This document shows, piece after piece, positions 47,258 through 64,000 of a DNA stretch of 64,000 bases; positions within the stretch are counted from its first letter, which is position 1, and every line of letters starts with the position of its first letter. Below the pieces are notes generated by a model. The model was given only the letters and a program-made list of their open reading frames with translations. It made no database searches and was not told the DNA's origin. Made by a program: the position numbers and the translations under genes. The stretch is from an uncultured Solirubrobacterales bacterium (GTDB lineage Bacteria; Actinomycetota; Thermoleophilia; Solirubrobacterales; 70-9): positions 83,433-147,432 of the forward strand of contig CAVZSH010000007.1 of NCBI GenBank assembly GCA_963777915.1, in the 5' to 3' direction.

Positions 47258-47452
47258 TAGGTTGACTTCACAAACTGAAGCGACTACCATACGAACAGAC
47301 GTTTGAGCGCCCAGTGATAGGCGATCGGCGCAGACTTACCTTCGCGGACCAGCTCTCCGGTCCGCTTTTTGTCGCCTTCCGCGACTTTTGGTCTGCGGTC
47401 GCATTTCAGTGGCAGGACTAAACCATCTAGCGCAAGGGAACGAGTTGACAGG

Positions 47453-48559
47453 ATGCTGGTAGCAGAGCTTCAAGAGATGGAGGAGGTCAAAGGCCTCATC
47501 ACGCGCGGGCAGCAGCTCGGCGTGCTCACCTTCGGTGACGTCGCCTCGGCGGTCTCCGAGGTCGACTTGGACGAGTCCGACGTCGAGGACCTGTACGGGC
47601 ACCTCGAGAAGTCGGGGATCGAGCTCGTCGAGGACATGGATCCGGCCCAGAAAGCCGCAGCCGACGCAATGCCCGTAGACACCGGCAAAAAAGGCCGTCG
47701 ACGCCCCAAACAGGCGCTCGACCTCAAACCTGACATGACGACCGATTCCTTGCAGTTGTTCCTCAAGGACATAGGCAAGGTGCGGCTTCTTACCGCCCAG
47801 GAGGAGGTCGAACTGGCGAAGCGGATCGAGCGTGGCGACCTCGACGCGAAGCAGAAAATGGTCGAGTCCAACCTACGCCTGGTCGTCTCGATTGCCAAGA
47901 ACTATCGAAATCAGGGCCTTCCCTTCCTCGACCTGATTCAGGAGGGGACGTTGGGACTGGTCCGCGCGGCGGAGAAGTTCGACTACCGCAAGGGATTTAA
48001 GTTCTCGACCTATGCAACCTGGTGGATCCGCCAGGCGATCGCCCGCGCGCTCGCCGATAAGGCAAGGACTATCCGCATCCCGGTCCACGTGGTCGAGAAG
48101 CTGAATAAGATCGGCCGCGCCGAGCGAAAGCTGGTCACCGAGCTGGGCCGGGAGCCCACCCCGGAGGAGATCGCCGAGGTGACCGGGATCGATCCCGAGG
48201 AGGTCGACTCGATCAAGCGCTCCGCGCAGGCCCCGGTTTCCCTCGAGAAGCCGGTCGGCGATGAGGAGGAGTCCGAGTTCGGCCAGTTCATCGCCGATGA
48301 GAAGGCTGAGTCCCCGTTTGATCGGGCGGCCGACCTGCTCACCAAAGAGGCGCTGAAGGAAGCACTGGAGAACCTCTCCTACCGCGAGCGTCGCGTGCTG
48401 GAGTTGCGCTACGGCCTCGGTGGCGAGCACCCGCGCACCCTGGACGAGGTCGGACGGACCTTCAATGTGACCCGCGAGCGGATCCGCCAGATCGAGAACC
48501 AGAGCCTGAAGAAGCTGCAGAGCCTGGGCGAGGCCCAGAAGCTGCGTGAGATCGCTTAA
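47453..48559 (+). CDS. rpoD: principal RNA polymerase sigma factor (SigA/RpoD)
   Basis: Acidic region 1.1, region 2 ([56 protein letters not shown]), region 3 and region 4.2 ([20 protein letters not shown]). Confidence 0.9.
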
Positions 48560-48604: not shown

Positions 48605-49720
48605 ATGTTCGACATTGACTCAGCTTTGAGCACGCTCGTCGAGCGGCAGGGGTCCGACCTCCACGTCAAAGTCTCCTCGCCGCCGATCCTTCGCGTCCAC
48701 GGTCAGCTCTCCTACCTTGAGGGCCACGCGCCGCTCACCGCCGAAGACACGGAGAAGGCATTCCACGACATCGCCGAGGTGCGCTCCCTGACCGAGTTCG
48801 AGGAGGACGGGGAGGCCGATTATTCATACGCGATCCCCGGCGTCGCTCGCTTTCGCGTCAATACCTTCAAACAGCGTGGTTCGATCTCGATCGTCTGCCG
48901 CGCCATCCCCTTCGAGATTCGCTCGATCGACCAGCTCGGCCTACCTGAGGGGTCCGCTCGCTGGCCAAGGAACCGCGGGGGATCATTCTCGTAACCGGCA
49001 CCACCGGTTCGGGCAAGTCGACGACGCTGGCTGCGATGATCGACCACGTCAATCGACCCGGGCCCGGCACATCGTGACGCTCGAGGATCCGATTGAGTAC
49101 CTGCACCCCGACAAACTCTCGATCATCAACCAGCGCGAGGTAGGGGCTGACACCAAGAGCTTTGGTCGGGCGATGAGGCGGGTCCTGCGCCAGGACCCCG
49201 ATGTGATCTTAATCGGGGAGATGCGAGACGAGGAGACGGTGCGTACGGCGCTCTCGGCCGCGGAGACCGGCCACCTCGTCCTCTCAACGGTCCACACCCT
49301 CGATGCGACCGAGACGATCAACCGGATCATCGACTTCTTCCCGCCACACCTCCAACAGCAGGCGAGGGTGATGCTCTCCGCGACGCTTAAGGGGGCTATC
49401 GCCCAGCGTCTGGTTCCCGACCTTAGCGGCACGGCAGAGTCGCCGCGGCCGAGGTGATGGTAGTTACAGGGCGCATCCAGGACCTGATCCTCAACCCGGA
49501 TGAAACCGGCAAGATCACTGAGGTCATCGCCGAGGGGGAGTACTACGGGATGCGGACCTTCGACCAGTCGCTGCTCGGCTATGTGATGGAGGGTCGCATC
49601 TCCGAGCAGGTGGCGTTGGAGTACGCGTCCAGCCCCCACGATTTCAGGCTGATGCTCGCGGCTGGAGGGCAGCGGGCGAGCGGTATCGAGCAGCTCGACG
49701 CGGAGCCGGTGCCCCAGTGA
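48605..49720 (+). pseudogene. pilT: type IV pilus retraction ATPase PilT, copy 1, interrupted by 3 single-nt frameshifts (about 48950, 49053 and 49430)
   Basis: Contains [88 protein letters not shown] and EVMVVTGRIQDLI. The pieces sit in frames 2, 1, 0 and 2. Confidence 0.85.
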
Positions 49721-50374
49721 GGGAGAAGCTGAACGACAATCCGATCGCCCAGGTCGCCCTGGTAGGTGTTCTCGTAGTTGCGGCTGCGTTTCTACTGCTC
49801 AAAGGGGGTGGCGAAAGCAGCGAAGGATCCAAGGCGACGACTTCGACCAGGCCGAAGCGAGCTCCGGCGCAGGGTCCGCGGGCGAAGATTCTTCCAGCGC
49901 ATCCGCTGGGGGAGAAGCGTCCAGTGTCTCCAGCGGCGAAGAAGGCTCGAGCGCCACGGGTGGTGTAGCGGGCAGCGTAAGCCAAGCCGCTTCCCTACGA
50001 TCCCAGTCTCGGTGCCGGCGCCGCCGTACCGCGGTTTCGGGCGCCTATGCAGCAGATAAGACCATTGTCCTGCTCATCGTTCATCGCGGTGGAATCGAAG
50101 ATCGGATCGTCACCAGGGCGGTAGATCGGCTGAAAAATGACTCCGGGCTCGCCGTCTTTGTCATCCCGGCCAAGCAGATCGCCCGCTATGCGGCGATCAC
50201 GGTTGGAGTCGAAGTCGAGCAGGTGCCGGCGCTGGTTGTGATGCGTCCACGCCGCCTAGCGCCGGTACTCCCCAAGCCTCGAGTGACCTGGCTTCCCAGA
50301 CCCCCCAAAGCGTCGTGCAGGCGGTTCACGGCGCTACCTACAAGGGCCCCGAAATCGCCTATCACCCCAATTGA
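49717..50374 (+). pseudogene. membrane-anchored protein with acidic Ser/Gly linker and alpha/beta C-terminal domain (hypothetical); at least 2 frameshifts
   Basis: The GTG overlaps the pilT stop (GTGA). The pieces are: an N-terminal TM segment (IAQVALVGVLVVAAAFLLL); DDFDQAEASSGAGSAGEDSSSASAGGEASSVSSGEEGSS; KTIVLLIVHRGGIEDRIVTRAVDRLKNDSGLAVFVIPAKQIARYAAITVGVEVEQVPALVVM; and the tail SQTPQSVVQAVHGATYKGPEIAYHPN* in a third frame. Confidence 0.45.
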
Positions 50375-50383
50375 ACTGGTCAC

Positions 50384-52208
<1,825 letters not shown>

Positions 52209-52222
<14 letters not shown>

Positions 52223-53359
52223 CTTTGACTTCGCCGAGGTGGCTGCGCCGCATGGTGGAGGCGCGGGCCTCCGACGTCCACCTCACCGCTGGGTTTCCCG
52301 CCGGCGATCCGCGACCGGGGCAGGATCATCCCCGATGGAGGGCTTTCCGGTGCTCGGTGGGGCAGCAGACCCGGGAAGTCGTTTACGGCATCCTCAACGA
52401 TGACCAGCGCAAGCGCTTCGAGAACGATAAAGCAGCTCGATTTCGCCTACGCGATCCCCAGCGTTGCCCGTTTCCGCGTCAACTGCTTCTTTCAGCGTTG
52501 GTTCGGTCAGCGCCGCTTTTCGCCTGGTTCCGCAGGAGATCCCTGGCTCTCGACACGCTCGGGGTGCCGCAGGTGCTGCGCGAACTGACCCAAAAGCCGC
52601 GCGGCTTTGTTTTGGTGACCGGCCCCACCGGCAGGGGTAAGTCGACGACGCTAGCGGCGATGATCGACGTGATCAACGCGAGCGCGAGGATCACATCCTG
52701 ACGCTCGAGGACCCGATCGAGTTCCTGCACCTCTCACAAACGCGCCCTCGTCAACCAGCGAGAGGTCGGCTCCGACGCGCCGGACTTCGCACTAGGACTT
52801 CGGGGCTGCGCTGCGCCAGGACCCGGACGTGATCCTGGTCGGAGAGATGCGCGACCTGGAGACCATATCCCCGGCGCTGACCGCCGCCGAGACCGGACAC
52901 CTGTGTTTTCGCGACCCTGCACACCAGTCGAGCGCCCAGACGGTCGACCGGTCATTGACGTCTTTCCCATCTCAGCAGCAAGGTCAGGTGCGCACACAGC
53001 TCTCGATCGCCCTGCAGGGGATCGTCACCCAGCAACTCTCGCCGACCGCCGACGGGAGGGGACGGGTCGTCGCCTGTGAGGTACTGATCCCGACCCCGGC
53101 GTTTTCGAACCTGATCCGCGAGGGCAAGACCCACCAGATCTATGCCGCGGTGCAGACTTCCGGTGCGGTTGGGATGCAGACAATGGATGCTGACTTGGCT
53201 CGCCTGGTGCGCTCGGGGAAGATCACCCGCGCACTTGCCGAGCAGCGTGCTTCGGTGCCTGAGGAGCTGAAGCTGCATGCTGGTTGGCGGCGCGGCGCAG
53301 ATGCCGGGCGGCGGTCTGGCGGGTCAGAGCCTGGCGCCTCCGGCGCCCGTCTACACTAA
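52209..53359 (+). pseudogene. pilT: PilT-type retraction ATPase, copy 2, about 14 frame changes
   Basis: Contains [132 protein letters not shown] and IIDVFP, followed by an intact C-terminal third (track ORF 52829..53359). Confidence 0.8.
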
Positions 53360-53373
53360 GGAAGCCTAGGACG

Positions 53374-54619
53374 ATGGCCGGCGCCACGACGTTTGCCTTC
53401 CGCGCCATGGACCTCGCCGGGGTCGCCTCGTCTGGTGAGCTGGAGGCTGAATCAAAGGCCCAGGTCTCCGAGCAGATCCGCCAGCGTGGCCTGATCGTGC
53501 TCGACGTTTCCGAGAAGCATGAGCCTTTTAAGGTCGAGGACCTTTTCAAGCGCTGGCAGGCGGTCGACATGCGCGAGCTGGCAGTATTCTCGCGCCAATT
53601 CGCGACCCTTGTCGCCTCCGGGATGCCAATGCTTCGCACCCTGCAAACGCTCGAAGAGCAGACTCAGGATGAAGAGATCCGCGACGCGGTTGCCAGCTTG
53701 CGGGGGGATGTCGCGGCGGGCAGCTCACTCGAGCAGGCGATGGAGCGGCACCCGAAGGTCTTCGATCGCCTGTTCCGGGCAATGGTGCGCTCGGGTGAGC
53801 AGTCGGGCCGCCTTGAGGAGGCGCTCGACCGGATCGCCTACCAGGTGGAGAAGGCCGATTCCCTGCGCCGGCAGATTAAATCGGCTCTGATGTATCCGGC
53901 ACTTGTCTTCACCTTCGCGGTAATAGTGCTGGTTGCGATAGTCGTCATCGTCATCCCCGTCTTCGTCAAGATCTTCCAAGAACTCGCCGCCGAAAACCCA
54001 GAAGAAGCTACCGGGTTGCCGGCGCCCACCCAGCTTTGCGTCGACGTCTCCAACGCGCTGACCGGCTACTGGTACCTGATCATCCCAGGTCTGGCGCTCG
54101 CCATCTTCGGCTTTATCAAATGGAAGAAGACCGATGGCGGCCATGCACAGTGGGACCGCCTCAAGCTGAAGATTCCATTCAAAATCGGCGACGTGATCCA
54201 AAAAGTCTCGCTGGCCCGCTGGTCACGCACCTTTGCGGGCTCGGTCTCCTCAGGGGTGCCGATGCTGCAGTCGATCAAATTGACCGGACAGACGGCCGGC
54301 AACATCGTGGTCGAGCAGGCGATGGAAGACGTCTACGCCTCGGTCAAGCGTGGCGGCTCGCTTGCCGGACCAATTGAGAAAAACCCGATCTTTCCCTCGA
54401 TGGTTGGTCACATGATCTCGGTGGGCGAGGAATCTGGCCAGCTGAGAGCACATGCTGAGCAAGATCGCCGACTTCTATGAAGCCGAGGTCGATGCCAAGA
54501 TCAAGGCTCTGACCGCTTTGATCGAGCCGCTGATGATCGTCTTCGTAGGCGGCATCGTCGGGTTCATCGTCATCTCGATGTACTTGCCGCTGTTTAGTAT
54601 CTACGAACACATCCGTTAA
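53374..54619 (+). pseudogene. pilC: type IV pilus platform protein PilC (GspF family) with one frameshift near 54445
   Basis: Two T2SSF repeats (FSRQFATLVASGMPML...GEQSGRLEE and WSRTFAGSVSSGVPML...GEESGQL). The last 55 aa (MLSKIADFYEAEVDAKIKALTALIEPLMIVFVGGIVGFIVISMYLPLFSIYEHIR*) are in the next frame. Confidence 0.85.
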
Positions 54620-54665
54620 GCTGCGTTTTGTCTGGAGTGACGTAAGACGCTGAGCCGCGCTTGAG

Positions 54666-54688
54666 CTGGTTCGCCTGAGCCGAACCAG
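54666..54688 (+). terminator. weak hairpin after pilC
   Basis: CTGGTTCG-cctgagc-CGAACCAG (8-bp stem), with no U-tract. Confidence 0.25.
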
Positions 54689-54885
54689 GTTGCGATTTGG
54701 ACGTTCGTTCGGCCAGCTGACGGCGGCCGTCCACTGCCGGATCGATTGTCCGTACTTTTTGGTATCAGTGAGGCGAGTTCTCGGCTCCCACATACGGAAA
54801 AATCGGTCTCTTTCAAAATCGGGCTAAATTCACTAAAGGTGGCCTGGTAGGGGTCGATTAGTGACCTGTAATGAAACTGCCAGTG

Positions 54886-54973
54886 CCTCGGTTCAAAAGG
54901 CAAACCCGTCGTCAGGCGGGGGCGCACAGCTCTCGGGGGCTCCTAGCTAGGAGCCGCCGGGCTACCACCGGGG
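54886..54973 (+). promoter_or_regulatory. candidate c-di-GMP-I (GEMM-I-like) riboswitch aptamer in the pilA1 leader
   Basis: AAAAGGCAAACC-CGTC-GTCA-GGCG-GGGGCGCACAGC has the same segment lengths as the Vc2 core GGCAAACC-AUUC-GAAA-GAGU-GGGACGCAAAGC, with a compensated 4-bp helix. A second 13-bp hairpin lies at 54932-54961. The closing helix pairs CCTCGGT (54886-92) with ACCGGGG (54967-73). This was a hand alignment only, and there are two mismatches in the most conserved block. Confidence 0.35.
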
Positions 54974-55041
54974 TCAGAGGACACCACGTGGCCATACGCG
55001 ACGGGGCTCTGGCGCAAACGATAGGTCCATAGGAGGTACCT

Positions 55042-55479
55042 ATGTTTCTCCAGAATCTCCGGGCCAAGGTTGGTGCCCGGCTAAATGGCGAGAGCGAGGC
55101 CGGCTTTACGCTGATCGAGCTTCTCGTTGTGATGCTGATTATGGGTATCCTGGCCGCGATCGCGCTGCCGGCGTTCTTCAATCAGCGTGAAAAGGCAAAC
55201 GACGCAAAGGCCAAGGAGTACGCCCATTCCGCCCAGGTCGCGATAGAGACATTTGCGACCGAACACGAAGGCGAATACACTGCGGCCACCATAGGTGCTC
55301 TGCAGACAATCGAGCCGACTCTGAAAAGCGCGACCATCGCACTCTCAGGGCTAGGTAAAACGACATACACAATCACATCTGAATCAAGCACTGGAGACAA
55401 ATTCCAGATTGTCAACAATGCAGGCGAACTCTCGTTCCCCTGTACGCCGAAAGAACATGGCGGGCTGCCCCGCATCTGA
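55042..55479 (+). CDS. pilA: type IV pilin (prepilin with class III signal peptide), paralogue 1; the 3' end is probably frameshifted near 55460
   Basis: AGGAGG lies 5 nt upstream of the ATG. The leader ends ...GESEAG followed by [25 protein letters not shown] (G-1, F+1, E+5). The +1 frame after ...FPCTPKEH reads [11 protein letters not shown] (stop 55496-55498), matching the tail of pilA2. Confidence 0.85.
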
Positions 55480-55552
55480 AAGCTGGGCCCACGGTTAATC
55501 AGCTCTACTGAGCATCGTTTGGCCCTAACAGGTCATGCGTGATCGCATCTTT

Positions 55553-55579
55553 GAGGGGCGGGCCTTGCGCCCGCCCCTC
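55553..55579 (+). terminator. 11-bp GC hairpin after pilA1
   Basis: GAGGGGCGGGC-cttgc-GCCCGCCCCTC is a perfect stem located 74 nt after the annotated pilA1 stop. Confidence 0.5.
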
Positions 55580-55624
55580 ATGCGTTCGTCCAGATTTCAT
55601 AAGTCGCCTCAAAAGCTGGCGAAG

Positions 55625-55650
55625 AAAAGTCGAAACCAAAAGTCGAAACC
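55625..55650 (+). repeat. direct tandem 13-mer AAAAGTCGAAACC x2 upstream of the Ig-repeat protein gene
   Basis: Two exact adjacent copies lie 30 nt upstream of ATG 55680. Confidence 0.8.
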
Positions 55651-55679
55651 ATTAGCTGGATAGCCCTCACTTGAGACTC

Positions 55680-57065
55680 ATGGCAGCCATCTCAAAACAA
55701 GCGCCGGTGCGGACCTTCGGCAAAACGAGCCGCCTTGGGCTGCTCACTCTGGGGTTCCTCGCCTCACTAGCTGTGTTAGCGTCCTCGGCGCGGGCCAATC
55801 CGGCGCCTCCAGCGCTGACTTTTACGTTTCCCGCGTCTCCTGGCACCTCCCTGACACCTCGGATCCAGGGCGAGGCAGAAGGAGTAATTACCGCGGCTGT
55901 TGGACCGAGGTTGATCGAGCGCTCCGACGGTGCGACGACGATGGCGAGCGAACCACCCGGCATGGTCACGATCTACGCAAACGAATCCAATTGCAGCGAT
56001 TCCGAAGCGATCGCCGCAGAAGGTAGCGCGGCCGAACTTGAAGGCGCTGGGATCGAAGTGAAAGTCGAGCCCGACTCGATCACGACCTTCTATGCCTCGC
56101 TTACCAAGGAAAGTGGCTCTTCACCATGCTCCCGCCAAGGTATTAAGTACCGTCAGGTGACTACTCCCCCCGGACCGCCTACCTTCAGCTCGATCAACCC
56201 AGCCTCACCGGCCAACGACAATACCCCGCACCTGATCGGCAACGGAGAATCTGAATCGGTCGTCTCGATCTACACGACCGCGGATTGCTCGGGTCAGCCA
56301 GTCGGAGTCGGATCGGCGGCCACCTTCGCGGCCGAAGGCATTCAGGTCTCGGTACCCGACAATTCTTTGACCACATTTTACGCAAGGGCGACGCTGGCAG
56401 AAACTGTGTCCTCGCCCTGCTCGGAGTCATCGATCGAATACCAGGATGTAGCTCCGGTGGAAGAAGAAGAAGAGCAGGGCCAGGGCGGATCTCCGGGCTC
56501 CGGCGGAACGGTACGACCGCCTGCCCCCGAACTGCATACTGACCCCAGCGGGCTTTCCAACGATAGTGCGGTTCTGGTGACGGGCTCAGCCCCCGATGCG
56601 ATGTCGGTTGAAATTTTCGAGAACGCCGCTTGTACGGGTGCCCCAGTGACCAACGGATCGGCAGCCCAGTTCGCTTCTGGCCTGCGGGTCCAGGTCGCCG
56701 TCAATACCTCGACGAGCTTTTACGGTGACTCACTGGGGGCAGACGGCGGCCGCTCGACGTGCTCGGCACCCGTCGTATACAGGGAGGACTCGACTCCGCC
56801 CCACACCAGGTTCACGATGGCGCCTGGCGCAGTGACCCACAAACGCAAGGCGGTGTTCCGCTTCATCGATACAACCGAGGATCCTTTTGGGGTCACTTTC
56901 CTCTGCAAAGTCAATCGGGGAAAGTGGAGGTCATGCCACACGCCGCTTCGTCTGCACCATCTCCACTTCAGGTCCTATCTCGTGCATGTGAAAGGGATCG
57001 ACTCGGTCGGCAATGCGGAGGTTAGAGGGGCCAGTCGCCGCTTCAGGGTGGTCCACCGCAGTTGA
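55680..57065 (+). CDS. secreted protein with three Cys-pair Ig-like repeats and a C-terminal FxC..(w)..C / GN-type Ig domain
   Basis: Signal peptide LGLLTLGFLASLAVLASSARA. Three modules of about 95 aa share ..SP.N..P...G.......V.IY....C.G.....GSAA.F...GI.V.V...S.T.FYA......G.SS.CS...I.Y. The C-terminus reads VFRFIDTTEDPFGVTFLCKVNRGKWRSCHTP...VHVKGIDSVGNAE. Confidence 0.7.
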   Translation: MAAISKQAPVRTFGKTSRLGLLTLGFLASLAVLASSARANPAPPALTFTFPASPGTSLTPRIQGEAEGVITAAVGPRLIERSDGATTMASEPPGMVTIYANESNCSDSEAIAAEGSAAELEGAGIEVKVEPDSITTFYASLTKESGSSPCSRQGIKYRQVTTPPGPPTFSSINPASPANDNTPHLIGNGESESVVSIYTTADCSGQPVGVGSAATFAAEGIQVSVPDNSLTTFYARATLAETVSSPCSESSIEYQDVAPVEEEEEQGQGGSPGSGGTVRPPAPELHTDPSGLSNDSAVLVTGSAPDAMSVEIFENAACTGAPVTNGSAAQFASGLRVQVAVNTSTSFYGDSLGADGGRSTCSAPVVYREDSTPPHTRFTMAPGAVTHKRKAVFRFIDTTEDPFGVTFLCKVNRGKWRSCHTPLRLHHLHFRSYLVHVKGIDSVGNAEVRGASRRFRVVHRS

Positions 57066-57109
57066 CTTGCTAGACGGCAGCCGGCGCTTGGGGTACAACT
57101 TCGGCCCCA

Positions 57110-57859
57110 ATGGTTGGTGTCGTCTTGATTGGATTCCTGGCCGGCCTAATCGCCGGCAGCTTCGCTACCGCAGTCGCGTACCGCGTACCGCGGGGGATTT
57201 CGATTATTGGTCCCCGCTCGAAATGCCCTGTCTGCGGGGCGCGGATCGCCGCTTATGACAACGTCCCGGTCTTCTCCTGGCTTCTGCTGCGGGGCAGGGC
57301 CCGTTGCTGTGCTGCTCGAATATCCCCGCGTTACCCGCTCAGCGAGCTGATCGTCGGAACGGCCTTCGGCGTTACCGTGCTTGTCCACCGAGAAACATCT
57401 GCACCGGAGCTCGCGATCGACCTCGTCTTTGTGACGATGCTTGCCGCGATCACCCTCACCGATCTTGAGCGGCGAATAATCCCTAACAAGATCTTGCTTG
57501 CCGGCGCTGTAATCTGCATCGCGATTGCGGCGCCCAGCGACCCGGGTGGATTAGCCGAGCGCGCAGCGGCGGCCGCGGCTGCTGGCGGGGTGCTCTTCCT
57601 CATTGTGTTTGCCTATCCGGCCGGGATGGGCCTCGGCGATGCCAAGCTGGCGGCCGTGATGGGTCTGTTCCTGGGCTGGGCCGTGGCGCCGGCGATTCTC
57701 GTCGGGTTGCTGACCGCTACGGTCGCTGGCCTCACGCTGATCGCACGACATGGGGCGCAAGCTCGCAAGATGGCGATCCCATTTGGTCCTTTCCTAGCGC
57801 TCGGCGGGTTGGTGGGGATGCTTGTAGGCAACCAATTAATCGCTCTATATCTGCACTAA
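57110..57859 (+). CDS. pilD: prepilin peptidase (A24 family) PilD
   Basis: Contains SKCPVCGARIAAYDNVPVFSWLLLRGRARCC, ITLTDLERRIIPN and AGMGLGDAKLAAVMGLFLGW. The ORF is uninterrupted. Confidence 0.9.
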   Translation: MVGVVLIGFLAGLIAGSFATAVAYRVPRGISIIGPRSKCPVCGARIAAYDNVPVFSWLLLRGRARCCAARISPRYPLSELIVGTAFGVTVLVHRETSAPELAIDLVFVTMLAAITLTDLERRIIPNKILLAGAVICIAIAAPSDPGGLAERAAAAAAAGGVLFLIVFAYPAGMGLGDAKLAAVMGLFLGWAVAPAILVGLLTATVAGLTLIARHGAQARKMAIPFGPFLALGGLVGMLVGNQLIALYLH

Positions 57860-58137
57860 ACCCAATGCTGAATCGGCCTTCGGCCGCCGCGGAAGGTCAT
57901 CTGCGGCATCGAATCCGAGCCGCTGTTGAGGCGTCCGACGCCGTCCCTAGCGTCCTGCTCCCGAGTTTGGGGCTCCGGGGAGAAACGCAAGCGGGCATTT
58001 CGTGCTGGTTATGGGCTGAGAGCCCGCTGGTGTATCTGGACACCCCTTGCGACTGACCAGGTGCGCTGCGAGCGCGAATCGGTAGGTGTCGTTTTGCCCG
58101 CCTCGTCTCCCACGCAATCAGACGAGATGAAGACAAG

Positions 58138-59110
58138 ATGAGATTGATCGGTTTGGACGTGCGCCGCGACTTCTACGAGATCGAGATCGCCGGGGCGGTA
58201 GCGCTCGCTCGGCGGGTCGCATTGCCACCGACCCCGAAGAGCTGGAGCTCGTCGCCCAGAGTCTCGGGAATGAAGACCGGGCGCCCTACGTGCTGGAAAT
58301 CGTGATTACCAATTCCGCCCAGGTGCGGTGATCATCCACGCAAAGGAGAAGTCCACAAGCTCGACGCCTCGAAGCTTGCCGAGCTCTTGTCCGCCGGCCT
58401 GTACCCGAGGTCTGGATTCCCGACCAGGCCACTCGGGCACTGCGGCGACCCATCATCCCTGCCCCGCAGCCTGGTCGCCGAACACGCGATGGAAGAACGA
58501 GGTCCACGCGATCCTTCACCGCAACCTGATCCGCGCGGCCCCGGCCACTGACCTGTTCGGCCAGCCGGTCGTGTTTGGCTCACCCGGCTCGCGCAGCCGG
58601 TGGACGAGGCAAGAGACGCTCGATGCCTGCCTGCCGGCTCGATTTCGGCGTTTCGGAGTTGAAGTGCGCAGAGCAGGAAATCGCCAGGGCGGTGGTCCCC
58701 TCGCAGGAGATCCGTCACCGATGACGATCCCTGGTATCGATGTAATCACAGCGGCGACCCTGGTAGCGGCGATCGGCGACATCTCGCGCTTTCCGAGTAC
58801 TCGCCACATGGTTGGCTATCGAGGCCTTTGCCCTCGTTCGCGTCAAACCGGGTCAAAGGCATCCCAGCACGGAGGGACCTCCAGGATGGATCTCGAGTTG
58901 CCCGCCACGTTCTGGGTCACGCAGACTGGTCAGCAGCTCGCACTCCAGGTCCGCTTCACGGCTTCGCGGTGCGGGTAGCGGCACGGCGCACCAAGCAGAT
59001 GGCAACTATTACGGTCGCCCGCAAGCACTAGCGATGCTTGGCACCGACTCACCCGCGAAGAGGATGATGCCTTTAAGCGTCCGCTGACGGTGCCCGCAAA
59101 CTGCGAGCGA
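58138..59110 (+). mobile_element. IS110-family transposase remnant (many frameshifts/stops)
   Basis: Fragments spread across frames: MRLIGLDVRRDF, ..PEELELVAQSLGNEDRA, VWIPDQATRALRR, KNEVHAILHRNLI, MTIPGIDVITAATLVAAIGDISRFPSTRHMVGY.GL.PR..QSG, VARHVLG...AARTPGPLHGF..RVAARR.KQMATITVARK. The 3' end is approximate, and I identified no terminal repeats. Confidence 0.6.
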
Positions 59111-59763
59111 GGGAGTCAAGGTGGGCGCTCCGCGCCTGCGGCTAGGAACGCGTAGGGGCCGGCAGTGTGAGGCTCGGAGGCTGACATTCAGCGTGATCGT
59201 GAGGTGCTCGAGCAAGTTGACATGGACAGCCGTCGCTTTGTCGCCGACCGGCAGCCGAGTGCACCGAAGAAGCCGGGCGCCGGCGCGCCCATCTAACGGA
59301 TCCTCAGGCGCAGTAGCGGCAGGACCCCGCCCCTGATGCTGCTCTTTAGCTCTTCGTCAGGACCAGCACGCTGGAGAAACCTTCCAAGGACGAAGCGTCC
59401 AGTTCCCAATTGCCATTCTGTAACTAGCTCGCGATCACCGGAGGCGGCTCCGCAGAGCAGCCCAGAGAATGCTCCGACCACTGTCGGACTAAGGCTCGTC
59501 GGCTATCACCAAATCGAACCACGAAAGGGCGCCACGATGGCCGAGAGCTAGAGCATGACGACCCGCGCGGTGGTCGCCAAGACCCTAATCGAAGAGCGCG
59601 CTGGATACCGGAAGAGGAGGGATGGCGCTGGTCGTGGCTGAACCGAGCCAGTCCGGCGTCGAATTACCTCAAACAGTCGGTCCCCTGGCGGAGTTTCCCA
59701 CACTGGACTCGCACCGCGGAATTTATCTGGGCTCAGGCATACTGCGGTCATATGCACAGATTG

Positions 59764-60213
59764 TCAGCCGCCTTTCCAGCTGCCGCTGTGGGGGCAAGCG
59801 CCCTGTTCAGATGGCGAGCACGGATAGGTCAATGCGCCTTCCTTGGAGCGGTCGATTCCGAATGAGTGCCCAGTGGTTTCCGCTTCGACCGTGATTTCGT
59901 AGCCTTCACCTGCTTCGGTGGGAGTGACCGTGAATTTGGGGCCACCGCTCAGGCTCGGCTCGATTTGTTTGACGGCCGCTTGATTACATTTGGCGTAGCT
60001 TCCGTCGTTATCTGTAAAGCAGGACTCCACCGAGATCTGGACAGTTTGCGCCGTTTCCTCGGCCTTGGCGTCATCGGCCTTTTGCTTTTGATTGAAAAAT
60101 GATGGTAGAGCGATCGAGGCCAGCACTGCGATAATAACCATCACGACGAGAAGCTCAATCAGCGTAAAACCGGCCTCGTCACTGTCGTTCGGCTGGGTCG
60201 GAAGCCGCTGCAT
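59764..60213 (-). CDS. pilA: type IV pilin, paralogue 2
   Basis: MQRLPTQPNDSDEAG followed by [38 protein letters not shown]. It has two Cys pairs (SCFTDNDGSYAKC and PCSPSEQGAC). The track ORF extends to 60366; ATG 60213 (or 60243) gives a normal leader length. Confidence 0.8.
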   Translation of the reverse strand: MQRLPTQPNDSDEAGFTLIELLVVMVIIAVLASIALPSFFNQKQKADDAKAEETAQTVQISVESCFTDNDGSYAKCNQAAVKQIEPSLSGGPKFTVTPTEAGEGYEITVEAETTGHSFGIDRSKEGALTYPCSPSEQGACPHSGSWKGG

Positions 60214-60637
60214 GGACGTACGGAACTGTAAGGCTCTATGCATGCCATATCCGCGGCGCGGACAGCCGAAGAGCGTCTCCTTTTGACCTTGGGAACCGTG
60301 ACCGACCTGCTCTTCGGCATGATGGTGGGGCCGTCCGCTAGGCCGCAGGGCTCGTAGACTCATCACTTGGGCTTAATCGACTCAGAGGCCACGATCTTTA
60401 ACTCTTCCTACCCAACCCTCGGCTGACTGAGGTCTCATGATCACCAGCCAAGACCTTGGTCTAGCTCACAAAGAAAGTGAAATGGACAGGCGGCACCCAC
60501 TGGCTGCCTACATCGAGTTATGGGCTGCCATGGGTACACCGACGCCCGCTCCACAGGCGGGAGATCCCGAGGCGAACCGGGGCAAGCCGAGGCGGGGAAT
60601 ATTGGCAGGCCCGCGATGAGACTCTGCTCAGTTAGTA

Positions 60638-61527
60638 TTACCCCGTCCCTCTCAGCGGGGCGCGGTGCGGCGTTTTTGAGATAACGAAGTGGACCTTCAA
60701 GAGCTCGATCTTAAAGCTACGATCTCTTGGGCCGTAGACGAGAGTCTCCGGAGACCCGGGTTCAAGCGCAAGTAGCTGGCAGTTCGCCGAACCGAGCAGG
60801 CACTGCCCTTCGCCGAAAATCGAATCGACTTCGGAAGAGAGCAAAAGCAGGGCCTTGTCGCCGTCCTTGCTGACCCCCATGAAGATCGCCGCCGGTGTCT
60901 TGCGGCTGGGGAGCATGGTCAGCTCCGGGACGTTACGGCGCACCGATGGCTTGCTCTTCTTGGTTGACGCGCCACCTTCACTTGGAGAGTGACCCGGCAC
61001 AACCCGAACATCGATCGCGTAGGAGAAGTAGGTCAGGCGACCTGTTGCCGGAGGTGAATGGCTTTCCGTCTCCGGCGATGTAGAGGTGCCCGGGCTAGAA
61101 GGAGGTGCTGAGGCGGTCGAGGTGCTTGATTCGCCGCCGCTGGGGGATCCAGAACCGAGCGAGGATCCTGTCGCGGACGTGGATTCGCTCTTGGTGTACT
61201 GCTGCTTGAAGGGGTCCTTGGCGCGCAGATTGGTGAGCCGGCGGCGGTAGACCCGTATCCCGGGGGTAGACTTCGCAACAACCAGTTGTCGTGTGGGGTT
61301 GGCAACGGAGCTGGGGAGCGCCAGCGCCATTCGGGTGTTCGCGGCAGAGTTTTCTGAGCCCGAGTTTTGGCTCAGCGCGATCGGCACGGCGACGATCGCC
61401 ACTGCCAGCACAGCGACCAGGGGTAGCAGATGGCGATCGCGAAGGTCATAGAAGAGGTCGACCAGCGCATCTGGGGACCCGCAGCGTCCGAAAGCTTTAT
61501 CTCTGGGCCTTTCTTGAGCATGTTCAT
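60638..61527 (-). pseudogene. membrane-anchored protein with Ser/Thr/Pro-rich linker and C-terminal globular domain, last gene of pilMNO operon (unknown family); start region frameshifted
   Basis: MNMLKKGPEIK is in one frame. PDALVDLFYDLRDRHLLPLVAVLAVAIVAVPIAL...STSATGSSLGSGSPSGGESSTSTASAPPSS...TYFSYAIDVRVV...LLLLSSEVDSIFGEGQCLLGSANCQLLALEPG... is in the frame of track ORF 60638..62647. Confidence 0.45.
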
Positions 61528-62359
61528 TTCGCGGGTTGGAGACTGGCGTGGAGGACGGGTCGGAGGACCGCTTGAGGATGTGGTGGCCGCCGTCAGTTCG
61601 CCGGTCGAGGCCGTGGGAGCGGCTGCGGTAGCACCGGCCGTGACGCCCTGGCTTGGTGGGGTCAGGTAGGTAGTCACAGAGAAGGTTGCATTCGAGGTAG
61701 GGGAAGCTGCGTTCTGGGTCTTCGTTCAGTGAAAACCCATTCAGAGTCACCAGACGGCCGTCAACGGCGACGTTTCGCCCGCCGCTGTGGACTAGCGAGT
61801 CGATACCCCTGATGAAGTCGGCGACGTCAGCGAAGTTGCCGCTGAAGGTGAGGTTGTAGGGCATCACGCCGAGCCCTGCGGGGCCGATTGTCGCGCCCAG
61901 CGGCAAAAGTGAGGCCGATGCCTCAGTGGGAGGCACGGTTGCAGCCGTCGCCTCTGCGCTGGGGGAACCGCCCGCCGGCGCCACCGGCGTTGTGGTCGCG
62001 GGCGGGCTTGCCGGCGCGCCGCCACCGGAGCCAGACCCGAGCGCGATGCTGTTGAACCTGAGGTTCGCATGGTTGGCGATCCGGTTCAGCACCACCAACA
62101 GCGAGGAGGTTTCGTCGCTGTTGGGTACGGCCTTGCCGAGGACTACCAGCTGCTGATAGTCGGTTGGGAAATCGCGACGAGCCGATACGGCCTCGGTCGC
62201 CTTGAGTTGCGATTTGGCCAGCGTGGCGCGCAGCTGGCCGACCTGGCCGGCGAGTGCGCTTGCTTCCTGTCGCTTGGGGCCAAGCGCGAGGACCCAAAAG
62301 GCGACGGCAAGGGCTGCGACCACCAGCATCGAGACAATCAGTCGGTTCGCGGAGCTCAT
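61524..62359 (-). pseudogene. pilO: PilO-like pilus assembly protein; 3' boundary and frame uncertain
   Basis: The ATG at 62359 lies 2 nt after the pilN stop. Contains a TM segment LIVSMLVVAALAVAFWVLAL, a coiled coil, DYQQLVVLGKAVPNSDETSSLLVVLNRIA and MPYNLTFSGNFADVADFIRGID. After ...FPYL the plausible reading (NATFSVTTYLTPPSQGVTAG..) moves to another frame. Confidence 0.55.
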
Positions 62360-62360
62360 C

Positions 62361-63191
62361 TCAGCCCCCCGCCGAGCTGGTCGAAGAGGCAGCGGGCGCC
62401 GAGGGCGTGGTCGAGGAGGCAGCGGGCGTCGTAGTTGTCGAAGAGGTCGTTGTCGACGGCGACGGGGGGCTCGCGGCTTCGGTTGAGCCAGCAGCATCGC
62501 TGGAGACTGGCGCCGCATCGAAAGCGGCGACGATCTGGAACTGGGCGATGAAGGTACGCGTCTGGCAGCTCGAGCTAGCCCCCCCGCCCGAGGCTGGTGT
62601 CGCGGAACCGCTGCTGACCGAGCCGCCGCTAGCTTGATTACTTCCAAGCGCCGAGGACTGCACGCCGACCCGGGTCACGCCGTCGATATCCTTCAACGCC
62701 TGGATGAATCCGGCGACAGCTTCCTGACTGCGGGCGCACCCGACCAGCTCCAGTGCCGGTCCCGGGACCGAGGCGCGTAGGGCTATGCTGGCTGCGCCTT
62801 CTGGGCTGACCTGGGGATTGTCGGTAGCGGTGAGGTTGGTAAGCCAGACGTCGCCCGGCAGGACGAGGGCAAGTTCACGCATCACCCGTTCCCAATCAAA
62901 GCGGCTGTCGGCGAGGCTGGTGACGGTCGCAACGCGCTGATCGTGGACGTTGTGAAACTGGGTATAGGCGTCAAAGCGGGCCGCGCGGGCTTTGGCGACG
63001 GCATTTTGTTGCTGGAGTTGGGCGACCTCCGTCTTGCGTTCGGAGATCTGGTTCTCGGAGATGACGAGCACGCTCACTCCAGCCAGGGCGGCGATTAGGG
63101 CTCCGATGACGATGTAGGCGAGCGGGCCGCCCCGCATCGGGGCGCGCCGTCCGTGGCGCTGGTTGATCGGAATGAGGTTGACGGGGCGCAT
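62361..63191 (-). CDS. pilN: PilN-like fimbrial assembly protein with Ser/Thr-rich tail
   Basis: Contains MRPVNLIPINQR, a TM segment LAYIVIGALIAALAGVSVLVI, a coiled coil, and DVWLTNLTAT...GCARSQEAVAGFIQALKDIDGV. Confidence 0.75.
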   Translation of the reverse strand: MRPVNLIPINQRHGRRAPMRGGPLAYIVIGALIAALAGVSVLVISENQISERKTEVAQLQQQNAVAKARAARFDAYTQFHNVHDQRVATVTSLADSRFDWERVMRELALVLPGDVWLTNLTATDNPQVSPEGAASIALRASVPGPALELVGCARSQEAVAGFIQALKDIDGVTRVGVQSSALGSNQASGGSVSSGSATPASGGGASSSCQTRTFIAQFQIVAAFDAAPVSSDAAGSTEAASPPSPSTTTSSTTTTPAASSTTPSAPAASSTSSAGG

Positions 63192-63193
63192 CT

Positions 63194-64000
63194 TTACTCG
63201 TCCAGTGCGAGGCCGTAGGAGAGCGTTAGGCGGGCGGCGGAGGCCGGGTCAAGGTTCGAGAGCGGCTCGGGGAGGCCGGTCGCGATCGGCAAGCCGAGGA
63301 TCGGCTCCATTTGCTCCCCGAGTCCGGGGATAATGCTGCCTGGTCCACTGAGGACGACGCGCTCGACTGGCACTGCCGCCTCCTGGGTGCCATAGAAATC
63401 GAGCGAGAGGCGAAGCTCATCGAGCAGGGAGGAGGTCCGCTCTCATTCGCTGCCCGTGCCTTGGCGATCGTCTCAGGGTCCCCCTCGATAGTCTCGATGC
63501 GGCTGGGTTAGGCCGACGTGGCCAAGCCACATCCGGGCGTGCTCTCGGCTTAACCCGCTCGCACCGGCGAGGACGTCGGCGACGCCCTCGAGGCCAACTG
63601 GCGAGACGCGGGTGAACAGGCACGAGCGTCCCTTGGCGATCGCCAGGTTGGTCGACGTCGCCGACGTTGCAGTAAAGGACGGCAGATTGGGCGGCGTTCA
63701 GGACGCTGTCGCCGTCGCCGGCTGGATCGGGTCCGGGAGTGGCTGGGCCGGCAAGAGCGCGGATCAGGCCAAAAGCCGAGAGGTCGACTCCGAACGGCTC
63801 CAGGCCGGCGTCGCGCAGGGGCTTCAGCGTGGCGGCGATCATGTCGCGGCGGGCGGCGACGACGATCACGTCGATTTGCGGCGGCACCGCCTTCGGCGGC
63901 CCGCACGCCGCCGATCACCCGGTGGTCGAGAACCGCCTGCTCGATCGGCATCGGGATCTGCTCCTGGGCCTCAGAAGCGCACGGCGGCCTCCAGCTCCTT
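63194..64000 (-). pseudogene. pilM: PilM (actin-like ATPase) pilus assembly protein, 3' two-thirds; runs off window end; at least 5 frame changes
   Basis: The pieces are FEAQEQIPMPIEQAVLDHRVIG, IDVIVVAARRDMIAATLKPLRDAGLEPFGVDLSAFGLIRAL, LYCNVGDV, TNLAIAKGRSCLFTRVSPVGLEGVADVLA and LLDELRLSLDFYGTQEAAVPVERVVLSGPGSIIPGLGEQMEPILGLPI...GLALDE*. They lie in different frames. Confidence 0.75.

What the first reader, a model, noticed from the sequence alone, without database searches (positions are those of the whole stretch)
48900..64000. Pilus motor/assembly ATPase genes carry many single-nt frameshifts while neighbouring genes are clean
Seen in sequence by following conserved motifs across frames. 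The frame changes I count are: pilT1 3; the small gene after it at least 2; pilB about 12; pilT2 about 14; pilC 1; pilA1 1 (at its 3' end); pilO and the next gene 2-3; pilM at least 5; and the IS110 transposase many. In contrast rpoD (1.1 kb), the Ig-repeat gene (1.4 kb), pilD, pilA2 and pilN are uninterrupted. Despite the shifts, catalytic motifs (Walker A/B, Asp and His boxes) read perfectly in one frame or another, and I did not see any in-frame nonsense codon. Both +1 and -1 shifts occur. Several fall in or next to short mononucleotide runs (for example GAGGGG at 48947-52, TTT at 35482-84 and GGCGGGG at 32798-804). Isolated single shifts also occur further upstream (13760, 32801, 34917, 35484, 37440). 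Inference: the pattern fits indel-type consensus error, such as an unpolished long-read or mixed-strain assembly, better than ancient pseudogenisation. A very recent loss of twitching motility cannot be excluded, and its concentration in the ATPases is odd either way.
Basis: partly seen in the sequence, partly recalled or inferred. Interest (0 to 1): 0.6.

Follow-up and report, generated by a model that had tools for sequence, protein, structure and literature searches.

The report
Frameshift-riddled pilus genes: assembly artefact
The many single-base frameshifts in the pilus motor genes are really in the sequence. They belong to several patches of poor consensus scattered over this long-read-style metagenome genome, one of which also shreds the only GMP synthase gene, so they are almost certainly assembly errors and not biology.

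Summary
OBSERVATION: confirmed almost count for count. Frameshift-aware alignment to intact orthologues from three same-genus genomes gives these numbers of frameshifts:
- pilT1 3, pilB 13-15, pilT2 13, pilC 1, pilA1 1
- IS110 transposase about 12-16
- pilO and the next gene 2-4
- pilM 7, of which 5 are in the window
- rpoD, the Ig-repeat gene, pilD, pilA2 and pilN: 0
No in-frame stops occur in pilT1, pilB, pilT2, pilC or pilM.

INTERPRETATION: the artefact reading is supported. The concentration in ATPases is not functional.
- The shifts fill a patchy 20-kb block (window 48,950 to about 68,850, past the window end).
- Equivalent blocks lie elsewhere in the genome. C3:34.3-43.9 kb has 67 frameshifts in eight consecutive genes, including the only guaA, GuaB3 and a metal ABC transporter. 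It has sharp edges and clean flanks. Smaller patches hit a malic enzyme, an ECF sigma region and ferritin.
- The genome carries about 0.1 isolated frameshift candidates per kb.
- Corrected pilT2 keeps dN/dS of 0.10, like intact orthologue pairs.
- The indels are mostly 1 nt, insertions are at least as common as deletions, and they are not enriched in homopolymers.

No near-identical intact copy exists in public data.

VERDICT: local consensus failure in a Solirubrobacterales MAG; low interest.

The parts
47369..48559 (+). rpoD-type sigma-70 gene, uninterrupted. It marks the clean left flank of the block.
   Evidence: One open 396-aa frame. 364/364 residues identical to G001 with 0 shifts. dN/dS 0.011.
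48605..49717 (+). pilT1 (PilT-type T2SSE ATPase), 3 frameshifts, all -1, near 48950, 49054 and 49431.
   Evidence: Alignment to G001, G002 and G003. Pfam T2SSE hit on a fragment. dN/dS 0.096 after masking the shift sites.
49717..50371 (+). Small conserved gene between pilT1 and pilB, 2-5 frameshifts. Conservation is low, so the count is uncertain.
   Evidence: G003, G002 and G001 references. Private indels at 49849, 49990, 50027 and 50257 in the DNA alignment.
50384..52222 (+). pilB (MshEN + T2SSE assembly ATPase), 13-15 frameshifts of mixed sign.
   Evidence: Pfam MshEN and T2SSE hits on fragments. 0 in-frame stops and dN/dS 0.22, against 0.15-0.18 for intact orthologue pairs.
52218..53369 (+). 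pilT2 (second PilT/PilU-type ATPase), 13 frameshifts (11 +1, 2 -1) plus at least one hidden compensating pair near 52951/52963.
   Evidence: dN/dS 0.103, against 0.115 and 0.098 for intact pairs. The read-through protein is 87% identical to same-genus PilT proteins.
53371..54619 (+). pilC (T2SSF platform protein), 1 frameshift near 54445.
   Evidence: Pfam T2SSF.
55042..55500 (+). pilA1 (type IV pilin with N-methylation motif), 1 frameshift near its 3' end.
   Evidence: Pfam N_methyl. The alignments place a shift at 55462 or 55249 depending on the reference.
55671..57065 (+). Ig-repeat-like secreted protein gene, uninterrupted.
   Evidence: Open 464-aa frame. C-terminal 168 aa align to G003 with 0 shifts. 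No Pfam hit.
57110..57859 (+). pilD (prepilin peptidase A24), uninterrupted.
   Evidence: Pfam A24_N_bact and Peptidase_A24. 0 shifts against G003 and G001.
58020..59300 (+). IS110-family transposase, about 12-16 frameshifts. It is the only copy in the genome.
   Evidence: Pfam Transposase_20 on a fragment. Alignment to three intact homologues. No second copy by blastn.
59764..60366 (-). pilA2 (second pilin), uninterrupted.
   Evidence: Open frame. Pfam N_methyl.
60638..62386 (-). pilO-like gene and the gene downstream of it, 2-4 frameshifts between 61475 and 61690. The 669-aa ORF listed here is a fusion created by the shifts.
   Evidence: Pfam PilO and a weak T2SSM hit. Alignments.
62361..63191 (-). 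pilN, uninterrupted.
   Evidence: Pfam PilN. 0 shifts against G002 and G001.
63197..64000 (-). pilM, which runs on to about 64295 beyond the window. 7 frameshifts, 5 of them inside the window. The damaged block continues through minor-pilin-like genes to about 68,850 in window-equivalent coordinates.
   Evidence: G003 and G001 references. Weak Pfam PilM_2 hit on a fragment. Genes beyond the window.

Best explanation
The frameshifts are consensus errors of the assembly, not mutations of the organism.

The genome is a 2.86-Mb, 11-contig, 94%-complete Solirubrobacterales MAG and looks like a long-read metagenome assembly. It has a low general background of residual 1-nt indels. It also has a handful of 1-20-kb patches in which the consensus was never properly polished. 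The likely cause is either very few reads supporting that path or reads from diverged co-occurring strains being collapsed together. In these patches random single-base insertions and deletions remain at about 0.7-1 per 100 bases.

The type IV pilus locus lies in one such patchy block, C7:132.4-152.3 kb, which is window 48,950 to about 68,850. The locus is structurally variable among congeners, has lower G+C than the rest of the genome and carries an IS110 element. In the living population the underlying genes are most likely intact and under purifying selection.

Shown: the block structure, its lack of any link to gene function, the retained selection signature and the type of indel. Inferred: the technical cause, that is, low depth as opposed to strain mixture.
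For: 1. NOT PILUS-SPECIFIC. A genome-wide codon-usage Viterbi scan finds 332 frame switches that do not coincide with a stop codon, and they cluster strongly.
- The largest cluster is C3:34.3-43.9 kb. Alignment to intact G001 orthologues gives 67 frameshifts in eight consecutive genes. Flanking genes are clean and the edges are sharp.
- Those eight genes are a DacA-like carboxypeptidase, a 1-PFK-type hexose kinase, a GuaB3-family protein, glutamine-hydrolysing GMP synthase, and a metal ABC transporter (binding protein, ATPase, two permeases).
- guaA and GuaB3 are single-copy in the genome.
- Further patches hit a malic enzyme (7 switches in 0.9 kb beside an intact 873-aa polA), an ECF sigma region, and an FAD oxidoreductase plus ferritin.

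2. SELECTION SIGNATURE KEPT. After masking the shift sites, pilT2 has dN/dS 0.103 against G001. Intact G001-G003 and G001-G002 pairs give 0.115 and 0.098, and dN is 0.099 against 0.078-0.086. pilT1 gives 0.096.

3. NO NONSENSE CODONS. Zero in-frame stops along about 5 kb of pilT1, pilB, pilT2, pilC and pilM, despite about 37 shifts.

4. INDEL TYPE.
- Pilus block: 34 of 45 private non-3n indels are 1 nt, with 24 insertions and 10 deletions among the 1-nt events.
- C3 block: 78 of about 110 small indels are 1 nt, with 46 insertions and 32 deletions.
- There is no homopolymer enrichment.
- Established knowledge of bacterial genome evolution says genuine decay is deletion-biased, produces indels of many sizes, and its frameshifts concentrate in runs and repeats.

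5. GENERAL BACKGROUND. About 0.1-0.2 isolated frameshifts per kb lie outside the blocks. Three of them were confirmed against orthologues.

6. SISTER GENOMES. G003 and G002 are also assemblies of about 10 contigs. Each has 5 private non-3n indels in this same 7 kb, for example in pilT1 and pilC. A single-contig relative, G012, shows none in 20 kb.

7. ORTHOLOGUES ELSEWHERE ARE INTACT. The best 80 PilT loci recovered from short-read soil metagenomes, and 120 database homologues, encode this PilT as one uninterrupted protein.

8. ALL THREE ATPASES LIE IN THE BLOCK. All three T2SSE ATPases of the genome lie inside the block. So the fact that the ATPases are hit follows from where they lie.

9. 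LITERATURE. Residual frameshifts in long-read MAGs, and patches that cannot be polished because of low depth or localised intra-population heterogeneity, are a described problem (proovframe preprint, 10.1101/2021.08.23.457338).
Against: - The artefact is therefore inferred, not seen.
- No near-identical intact copy of the locus was found in public proteins or JGI metagenomes. The best hits are 87-88% identical.
- The read-through PilT2 has 13 private changes at 240 columns that are at least 97% conserved in 120 homologues. The homologues have a median of 1 and a maximum of 5. This fits substitution errors and hidden indel pairs, but relaxed selection would also produce it.
- pilB dN/dS is slightly raised, 0.22 against 0.15-0.18.
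- Inside the block the damage is patchy. pilC, the Ig-repeat gene, pilD, pilA2 and pilN are clean or nearly clean. I cannot explain this mechanistically without depth information.
- The lack of homopolymer bias is not the classic nanopore signature.
- In the C3 block the indels come with about 7% extra private substitutions. That points to a diverged or mixed haplotype more than to simple low depth.
Confidence: 0.88

Rival explanations
1. Genuine, very recent pseudogenisation of the type IV pilus machinery. The population has lost twitching motility, and pilT1, pilB, pilT2, pilM, the minor pilins and a dead IS110 are decaying.
For: All three T2SSE ATPases of the genome are broken. The read-through PilT2 has excess private changes at conserved sites. 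pilB dN/dS is slightly raised. The locus has atypical G+C and an IS insertion. No intact near-identical allele was found elsewhere.
Against: Equally dense frameshift blocks hit the sole guaA, GuaB3, a metal ABC transporter and a malic enzyme. pilT2 dN/dS is 0.10, the same as intact orthologue pairs. Thirteen real indels would be expected to come with tens to hundreds of neutral substitutions and several stop codons, and none is seen. The indels are 1 nt, biased towards insertion and not at repeats. That is the opposite of what is known for bacterial gene decay.
Confidence: 0.06
2. Same artefact class, specific mechanism: a chimeric consensus. In strain-variable regions the assembler or polisher merged reads from two or more populations diverged by 10-20%, or followed a minor-strain path. 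The indels arise from inconsistent alignments and not from plain low depth.
For: In the C3 block, G000-private substitutions jump to 93-119 per kb, against 14-57 per kb in its flanks, and they do so exactly where the indels are. For GuaB3 the excess is mostly synonymous: dS 0.51 against 0.18 and dN 0.05 against 0.008. This suggests real sequence from a diverged lineage. The pilus locus differs in gene content among G001, G002 and G003. The indels are not homopolymer-linked.
Against: pilT2 shows no comparable excess of private substitutions. No alternative haplotig of either block exists in the assembly. It cannot be separated from the low-depth case without reads.
Confidence: 0.4
3. Genuine localised bursts of indel mutation in the organism, for example patches of error-prone break repair. 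These would give kb-scale tracts of real frameshifts in a living lineage.
For: The block-wise distribution with sharp edges. The absence of homopolymer bias would fit a non-slippage mutational process.
Against: It would inactivate the only GMP synthase gene and seven neighbouring genes at about 1 indel per 100 bases. No known process gives such a density. The same genome has a uniform background of isolated shifts, and sister MAGs show their own. That is what a sequencing cause predicts.
Confidence: 0.02

Closest known systems
Residual indel and frameshift errors in long-read (meta)genome assemblies, the problem addressed by protein-guided frame correction and short-read polishing
   Same: Single-base insertions and deletions split otherwise conserved genes. 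They occur across the whole genome and are worse where depth is low or populations are heterogeneous. The protein sequence reads perfectly across frames, and there are no accompanying nonsense codons.
   Different: Here the errors are strongly clustered into 1-20-kb blocks at about 1% and are not tied to homopolymers. The sequencing platform and the depth are unknown to me.
Genuine bacterial pseudogenes in decaying genomes
   Same: Multiple frameshifts per gene, with several neighbouring genes affected.
   Different: No relaxation of dN/dS in pilT2, no stop codons, no deletion bias and no repeat association. Essential single-copy genes are affected in the same way.
Actinobacterial and other Gram-positive type IV pilus clusters (pilB-pilT-pilC-pilA-pilD-pilMNO)
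   Same: The gene set and order match: two PilT paralogues and PilB (T2SSE), PilC (T2SSF), two pilins with the N-methylation motif, an A24 prepilin peptidase, and PilM, PilN and PilO. The locus is syntenic in same-genus genomes.
   Different: Nothing functional can be concluded from this copy. As assembled, the reading frames of the ATPases, pilM and the minor pilins are broken.
Phase-variable contingency loci (slipped-strand mispairing in simple repeats)
   Same: Frameshifts in surface-structure genes.
   Different: Each gene has 13-15 shifts, not one. None is in a repeat tract, and unrelated housekeeping genes are also affected.

Membership tests
Long-read assembly consensus (indel) artefact | Frameshifts occur irrespective of gene function, including in essential single-copy genes | tested here: met
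   C3:34.3-43.9 kb has 67 shifts in 8 genes, including the sole guaA and GuaB3. Malic enzyme, ECF sigma and ferritin patches.
Long-read assembly consensus (indel) artefact | The coding sequence still shows purifying selection and no nonsense codons once the shifts are skipped | tested here: met
   pilT2 dN/dS 0.103 against 0.098-0.115 for intact pairs. 0 stops in pilT1, pilB, pilT2, pilC and pilM. Weaker for pilB (0.22) and for the C3 block, where guaA gives 0.34 with 1 stop.
Long-read assembly consensus (indel) artefact | A genome-wide background of isolated 1-nt indels breaks otherwise conserved genes | tested here: met
   332 candidates, 0.116 per kb. The scan gives some false positives at overlapping genes. 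Three of the window's upstream candidates were confirmed against orthologues.
Long-read assembly consensus (indel) artefact | Raw reads disagree with the consensus, or depth or haplotype anomalies coincide with the dense zones | not testable with these tools
Genuine pseudogenes (gene decay) | Relaxed selection (dN/dS rising towards 1) and nonsense codons alongside the frameshifts | tested here: not met
Genuine pseudogenes (gene decay) | Deletion bias, varied indel sizes, and indels concentrated in homopolymers or repeats | tested here: not met
   1-nt insertions against deletions are 24:10 in the pilus block and 46:32 in the C3 block. The run-length distribution equals the background.
Type IV pilus gene cluster | T2SSE ATPases, T2SSF platform protein, prepilin with N-methylation motif, A24 peptidase, and PilM, PilN and PilO | tested here: met
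   Pfam hits above the curated cut-offs for T2SSE, MshEN, T2SSF, N_methyl, A24_N_bact, Peptidase_A24, PilN and PilO. PilM_2 is weak, on a fragment only. Synteny with G001, G002 and G003.
Phase-variable contingency locus | A single frameshift within a simple-sequence repeat tract | tested here: not met
   13-15 shifts per gene and no repeat context.

The most novel reading that the evidence does not exclude
The indel blocks are real. A soil Solirubrobacterales lineage would then carry kb-scale tracts of dense, non-slippage single-base indels, a localised indel mutagenesis. These tracts have just destroyed its pilus motors and, elsewhere, guaA and its neighbours. Selection has not yet had time to leave substitutions or stop codons.
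Probability: 0.03. Interest if true: 0.6.

Novelty: not a real feature. Interest (0 to 1): 0.1.

Why it matters
The main value is as a caution. About one gene in eight of this genome, and nearly every gene in a few blocks, would be mis-called as a pseudogene or split gene. Any inference of lost twitching motility, guanine auxotrophy, fused ORFs or novel small genes from this assembly would be wrong. The same risk applies to the sister MAGs, which show private frameshifts too. It also affects other first-stage notes on this window that rest on single frameshifts: the split GT2 synthase, the ABC-2 ATPase fused to its permease, and the pilA1 3' shift. If the indels were real the case would be of moderate interest, but the evidence is strongly against that.

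Tried and rejected
- INDEPENDENT ASSEMBLY OF THE SAME POPULATION. An exact-protein look-up of pilD found nothing. A search of 5.8 billion protein clusters with the read-through PilT2 gave at best 87-88% identity, namely the same-genus MAGs. A scan of JGI metagenome contigs gave at best 87%. No direct comparison at the indel sites was therefore possible.
- IN-GENOME REFERENCE FOR THE IS110. The IS110 is single-copy. I used homologues about 50% identical instead, so its count is approximate.
- SECOND HAPLOTIG OR PARALOGUE. None was found for guaA, GuaB3, pilB or pilT2.
- HOMOPOLYMER-DRIVEN ERROR OR SLIPPAGE. Rejected, because run lengths at the indel sites equal the background.
- LINK TO CONTIG ENDS. 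Clusters are somewhat enriched within 50 kb of contig ends: 43% observed against 28% expected. One cluster lies 321 kb from an end, so this is suggestive only.
- VITERBI SCAN AS AN ABSOLUTE COUNTER. It under-counts in dense zones (18 in the window, against more than 60 by alignment). It also calls some gene overlaps longer than 18 nt as shifts, for example three in G001's clean guaA region. I therefore used it only for the distribution.
- A CALCULATION SLIP. A first pilB dN/dS run used an out-of-frame reference start. It was redone.
Full report
SETTING
The window is C7:83,433-147,432 of a 2.86-Mb, 11-contig genome with 67% G+C, 94% completeness and 1.4% contamination. Protein matches place it in Solirubrobacterales, and its closest PilT relatives come from soil metagenomes and MAGs. 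The decisive test, read pileups, was therefore not available, and everything below is comparative.

- Gene content. After an intact rpoD-type sigma gene, the plus strand carries pilT1, a small gene, pilB, pilT2, pilC, pilA1, an Ig-repeat-like gene, pilD and an IS110-family transposase. The minus strand carries pilA2, a pilO-like gene with a neighbour, pilN and pilM. Pfam confirms T2SSE, MshEN, T2SSF, N_methyl, the A24 peptidase domains, Transposase_20, PilO and PilN, with only a weak PilM_2 hit on a fragment.
- References. Three same-genus genomes (G001, G002, G003; 92-94% DNA identity in rpoD) have the syntenic locus. In G001 pilT1, pilB, pilT2 and pilC are single open frames.
- Counts. I aligned their proteins to the window with a frameshift-aware dynamic-programming aligner. 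All three references place the shifts at the same positions:
  - pilT1 3; small gene 2-5; pilB 13-15; pilT2 13; pilC 1; pilA1 1; pilO and neighbour 2-4; pilM 7, of which 5 lie before base 64,000.
  - IS110 transposase about 12-16, against three intact homologues.
  - No shifts in rpoD, pilD, pilN or the aligned part of the Ig-repeat gene. pilA2 is a single open frame.
- DNA-level check. In a three-way DNA alignment of 47.5-54.6 kb, G000 has 45 private indels whose length is not a multiple of three. G003 and G002 have 5 each.
- Stops. No in-frame stop lies on the alignment path in pilT1, pilB, pilT2, pilC or pilM.
- Upstream shifts. Three of them were confirmed against orthologues.
- One detail fails. 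The indels are not enriched in mononucleotide runs.

2. THE DAMAGE IS A BLOCK, NOT A PROPERTY OF ATPASES
- The shifts continue beyond the window through pilM and three minor-pilin-like genes (6, 6 and 1 shifts). Two more follow near 68,594 and 68,850. After that, 11 kb to the contig end is clean.
- The affected stretch is window 48,950 to about 68,850. It is patchy inside.
  - Dense zones, about 6-10 shifts per kb: 49.8-53.3, 58.0-59.3 and 63.4-66.7 kb.
  - Sparse zones, at most 1 shift per kb: 53.4-57.9 and 59.7-63.2 kb.
- All three T2SSE ATPases encoded by the genome lie in this stretch. So the fact that the ATPases are hit follows from where they lie.

3. THE SAME THING HAPPENS TO UNRELATED AND ESSENTIAL GENES
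- The genome-wide Viterbi scan gives 332 frame switches that do not coincide with a stop codon (0.116 per kb). They are strongly over-dispersed: one 5-kb bin holds 20, against a Poisson mean of 0.57.
- The largest cluster is C3:34.3-43.9 kb. Alignment of G001's intact orthologues shows 67 frameshifts in eight consecutive genes. Five genes on one side and two on the other have none.
- NCBIfam names the eight genes:
  - a D-Ala-D-Ala carboxypeptidase-like protein;
  - a 1-PFK-type hexose kinase;
  - a GuaB3-family IMP-dehydrogenase-related protein;
  - glutamine-hydrolysing GMP synthase (775 bits, cut-off 400);
  - the four components of a metal ABC transporter.
- guaA and GuaB3 have no second copy.
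- Smaller patches hit a malic enzyme next to an intact 873-aa polA, an ECF-sigma region, and an FAD oxidoreductase plus ferritin near a contig end. rpoB is intact.
- An organism cannot plausibly carry 12 real frameshifts in its only GMP synthase gene and dozens more in its neighbours. The same process explains the pilus block.

4. SIGNATURES OF ERROR AS OPPOSED TO DECAY
- Selection. With shift sites masked, pilT2 of G000 against G001 has dN 0.099, dS 0.96 and dN/dS 0.103. The intact G001-G003 and G001-G002 pairs give 0.115 and 0.098. pilT1 gives 0.096, pilC 0.149 and pilB 0.224 (intact pairs 0.153-0.180).
- What real decay would predict. If thirteen real indels had accumulated in 1.15 kb, established knowledge of bacterial pseudogenes predicts a much larger number of unconstrained substitutions and several nonsense codons. 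Neither is seen.
- Indel spectrum. The spectrum is overwhelmingly 1 nt. Insertions are at least as common as deletions: 24:10 in the pilus block and 46:32 in the C3 block. The indels fall in homopolymers no more often than random positions do. Genuine frameshift mutations concentrate in runs and repeats, and bacterial decay is deletion-biased.
- Sister genomes. G003 and G002, which also have about 10 contigs, show their own private frameshifts in pilT1, pilC and elsewhere. A single-contig relative shows none in 20 kb.
- Homologues elsewhere. The 120 best database homologues, and the best 80 PilT loci recovered from soil metagenome contigs, encode this PilT as one uninterrupted protein.

5. WHAT DOES NOT FIT NEATLY
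- The read-through PilT2 has 13 private changes at 240 columns that are at least 97% conserved in 120 homologues. The homologues have a median of 1 and a maximum of 5. Some of these come from a hidden compensating indel pair near 52951/52963. The rest could be substitution errors or relaxed selection.
- In the C3 block the indels coincide with about 7% extra private substitutions. For GuaB3 these are mostly synonymous. This suggests that the assembler followed, or mixed in, a diverged co-occurring strain there.
- I cannot explain the kb-scale patchiness inside the pilus block without depth data.
- These points bear on which technical mechanism applies (low depth or strain mixture) more than on whether the shifts are technical.

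6. COMPARISON WITH WHAT IS KNOWN
- Residual frameshifts in long-read assemblies are a well-described problem. So are regions left unpolishable by low depth or localised intra-population heterogeneity (proovframe preprint 10.1101/2021.08.23.457338; see also PMC8103633 and PMC11017572, listed but not read in detail).
- The pilus locus itself is an ordinary member of the type IV pilus clusters common in this order.

7. VERDICT
- The apparent targeting of pilus ATPases is an accident of location inside one of several low-quality blocks.
- Confidence in an assembly artefact is about 0.88. Genuine recent pseudogenisation is about 0.06 and genuine localised indel mutagenesis about 0.02-0.03.
- Interest is low.

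NOTE ON METHOD
PilT2 was read through its shifts, with X at the -1 sites, for one protein search. For one locus scan the same read-through was used with the X positions left out. A pilB read-through was used only inside my own scripts, for counting and for a search of this genome.

Noticed in passing
G000 contig C3:34,300-43,900 (locus L015:4300-13900): A 9.6-kb block holds 67 frameshifts in eight consecutive housekeeping genes, including the sole guaA and GuaB3. Its edges are sharp. G000-private substitutions run at 93-119 per kb, against 14-57 per kb in the flanks. It looks like a poorly supported path from a diverged strain.
   Followed up: yes
G000 C5:1,242,800-1,243,700; C5:1,220,900-1,222,600; C9:163,500-166,800; C3:14,600-25,400: Further frameshift patches in a malic enzyme, an ECF sigma / anti-sigma region, an FAD oxidoreductase plus ferritin, and a looser series across amidase, ABC-transporter and alanine-racemase-like genes.
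   Followed up: partly
L010 (G003) and L011 (G002), pilT1, pilC and other genes: The same-genus reference genomes carry their own private 1-nt frameshifts: G003 has 3 in pilT1 and 2 in pilC, and G002 has 1 in pilT1. These MAGs probably share the same data-quality problem.
   Followed up: partly
window 54,000-62,000: G+C drops to 0.58-0.63 against 0.67-0.70 elsewhere. Codon usage is atypical, and the Viterbi model barely calls the Ig-repeat gene as coding. Gene content between pilT1 and pilO differs among G001, G002 and G003 (extra 461-aa gene, duplicated pilin, inserted transposase-like genes). The pilus locus is a strain-variable island.
   Followed up: partly
window 60,638-62,647 (-): The 669-aa ORF listed here is not a real protein. 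It fuses a pilO-like gene, its neighbour and an out-of-frame Pro/Arg-rich stretch overlapping pilN. The frameshifts and the scarcity of stops in high-G+C off-frames create it.
   Followed up: partly
They are part of the genome-wide background and should not be read as biology.
   Followed up: yes
window 52,600-52,640 (pilT2 Walker A): The read-through PilT2 has GPTGRGKST where 120 homologues have GPTGSGKST. It is one of 13 private changes at conserved columns and is possibly a substitution error.
   Followed up: partly
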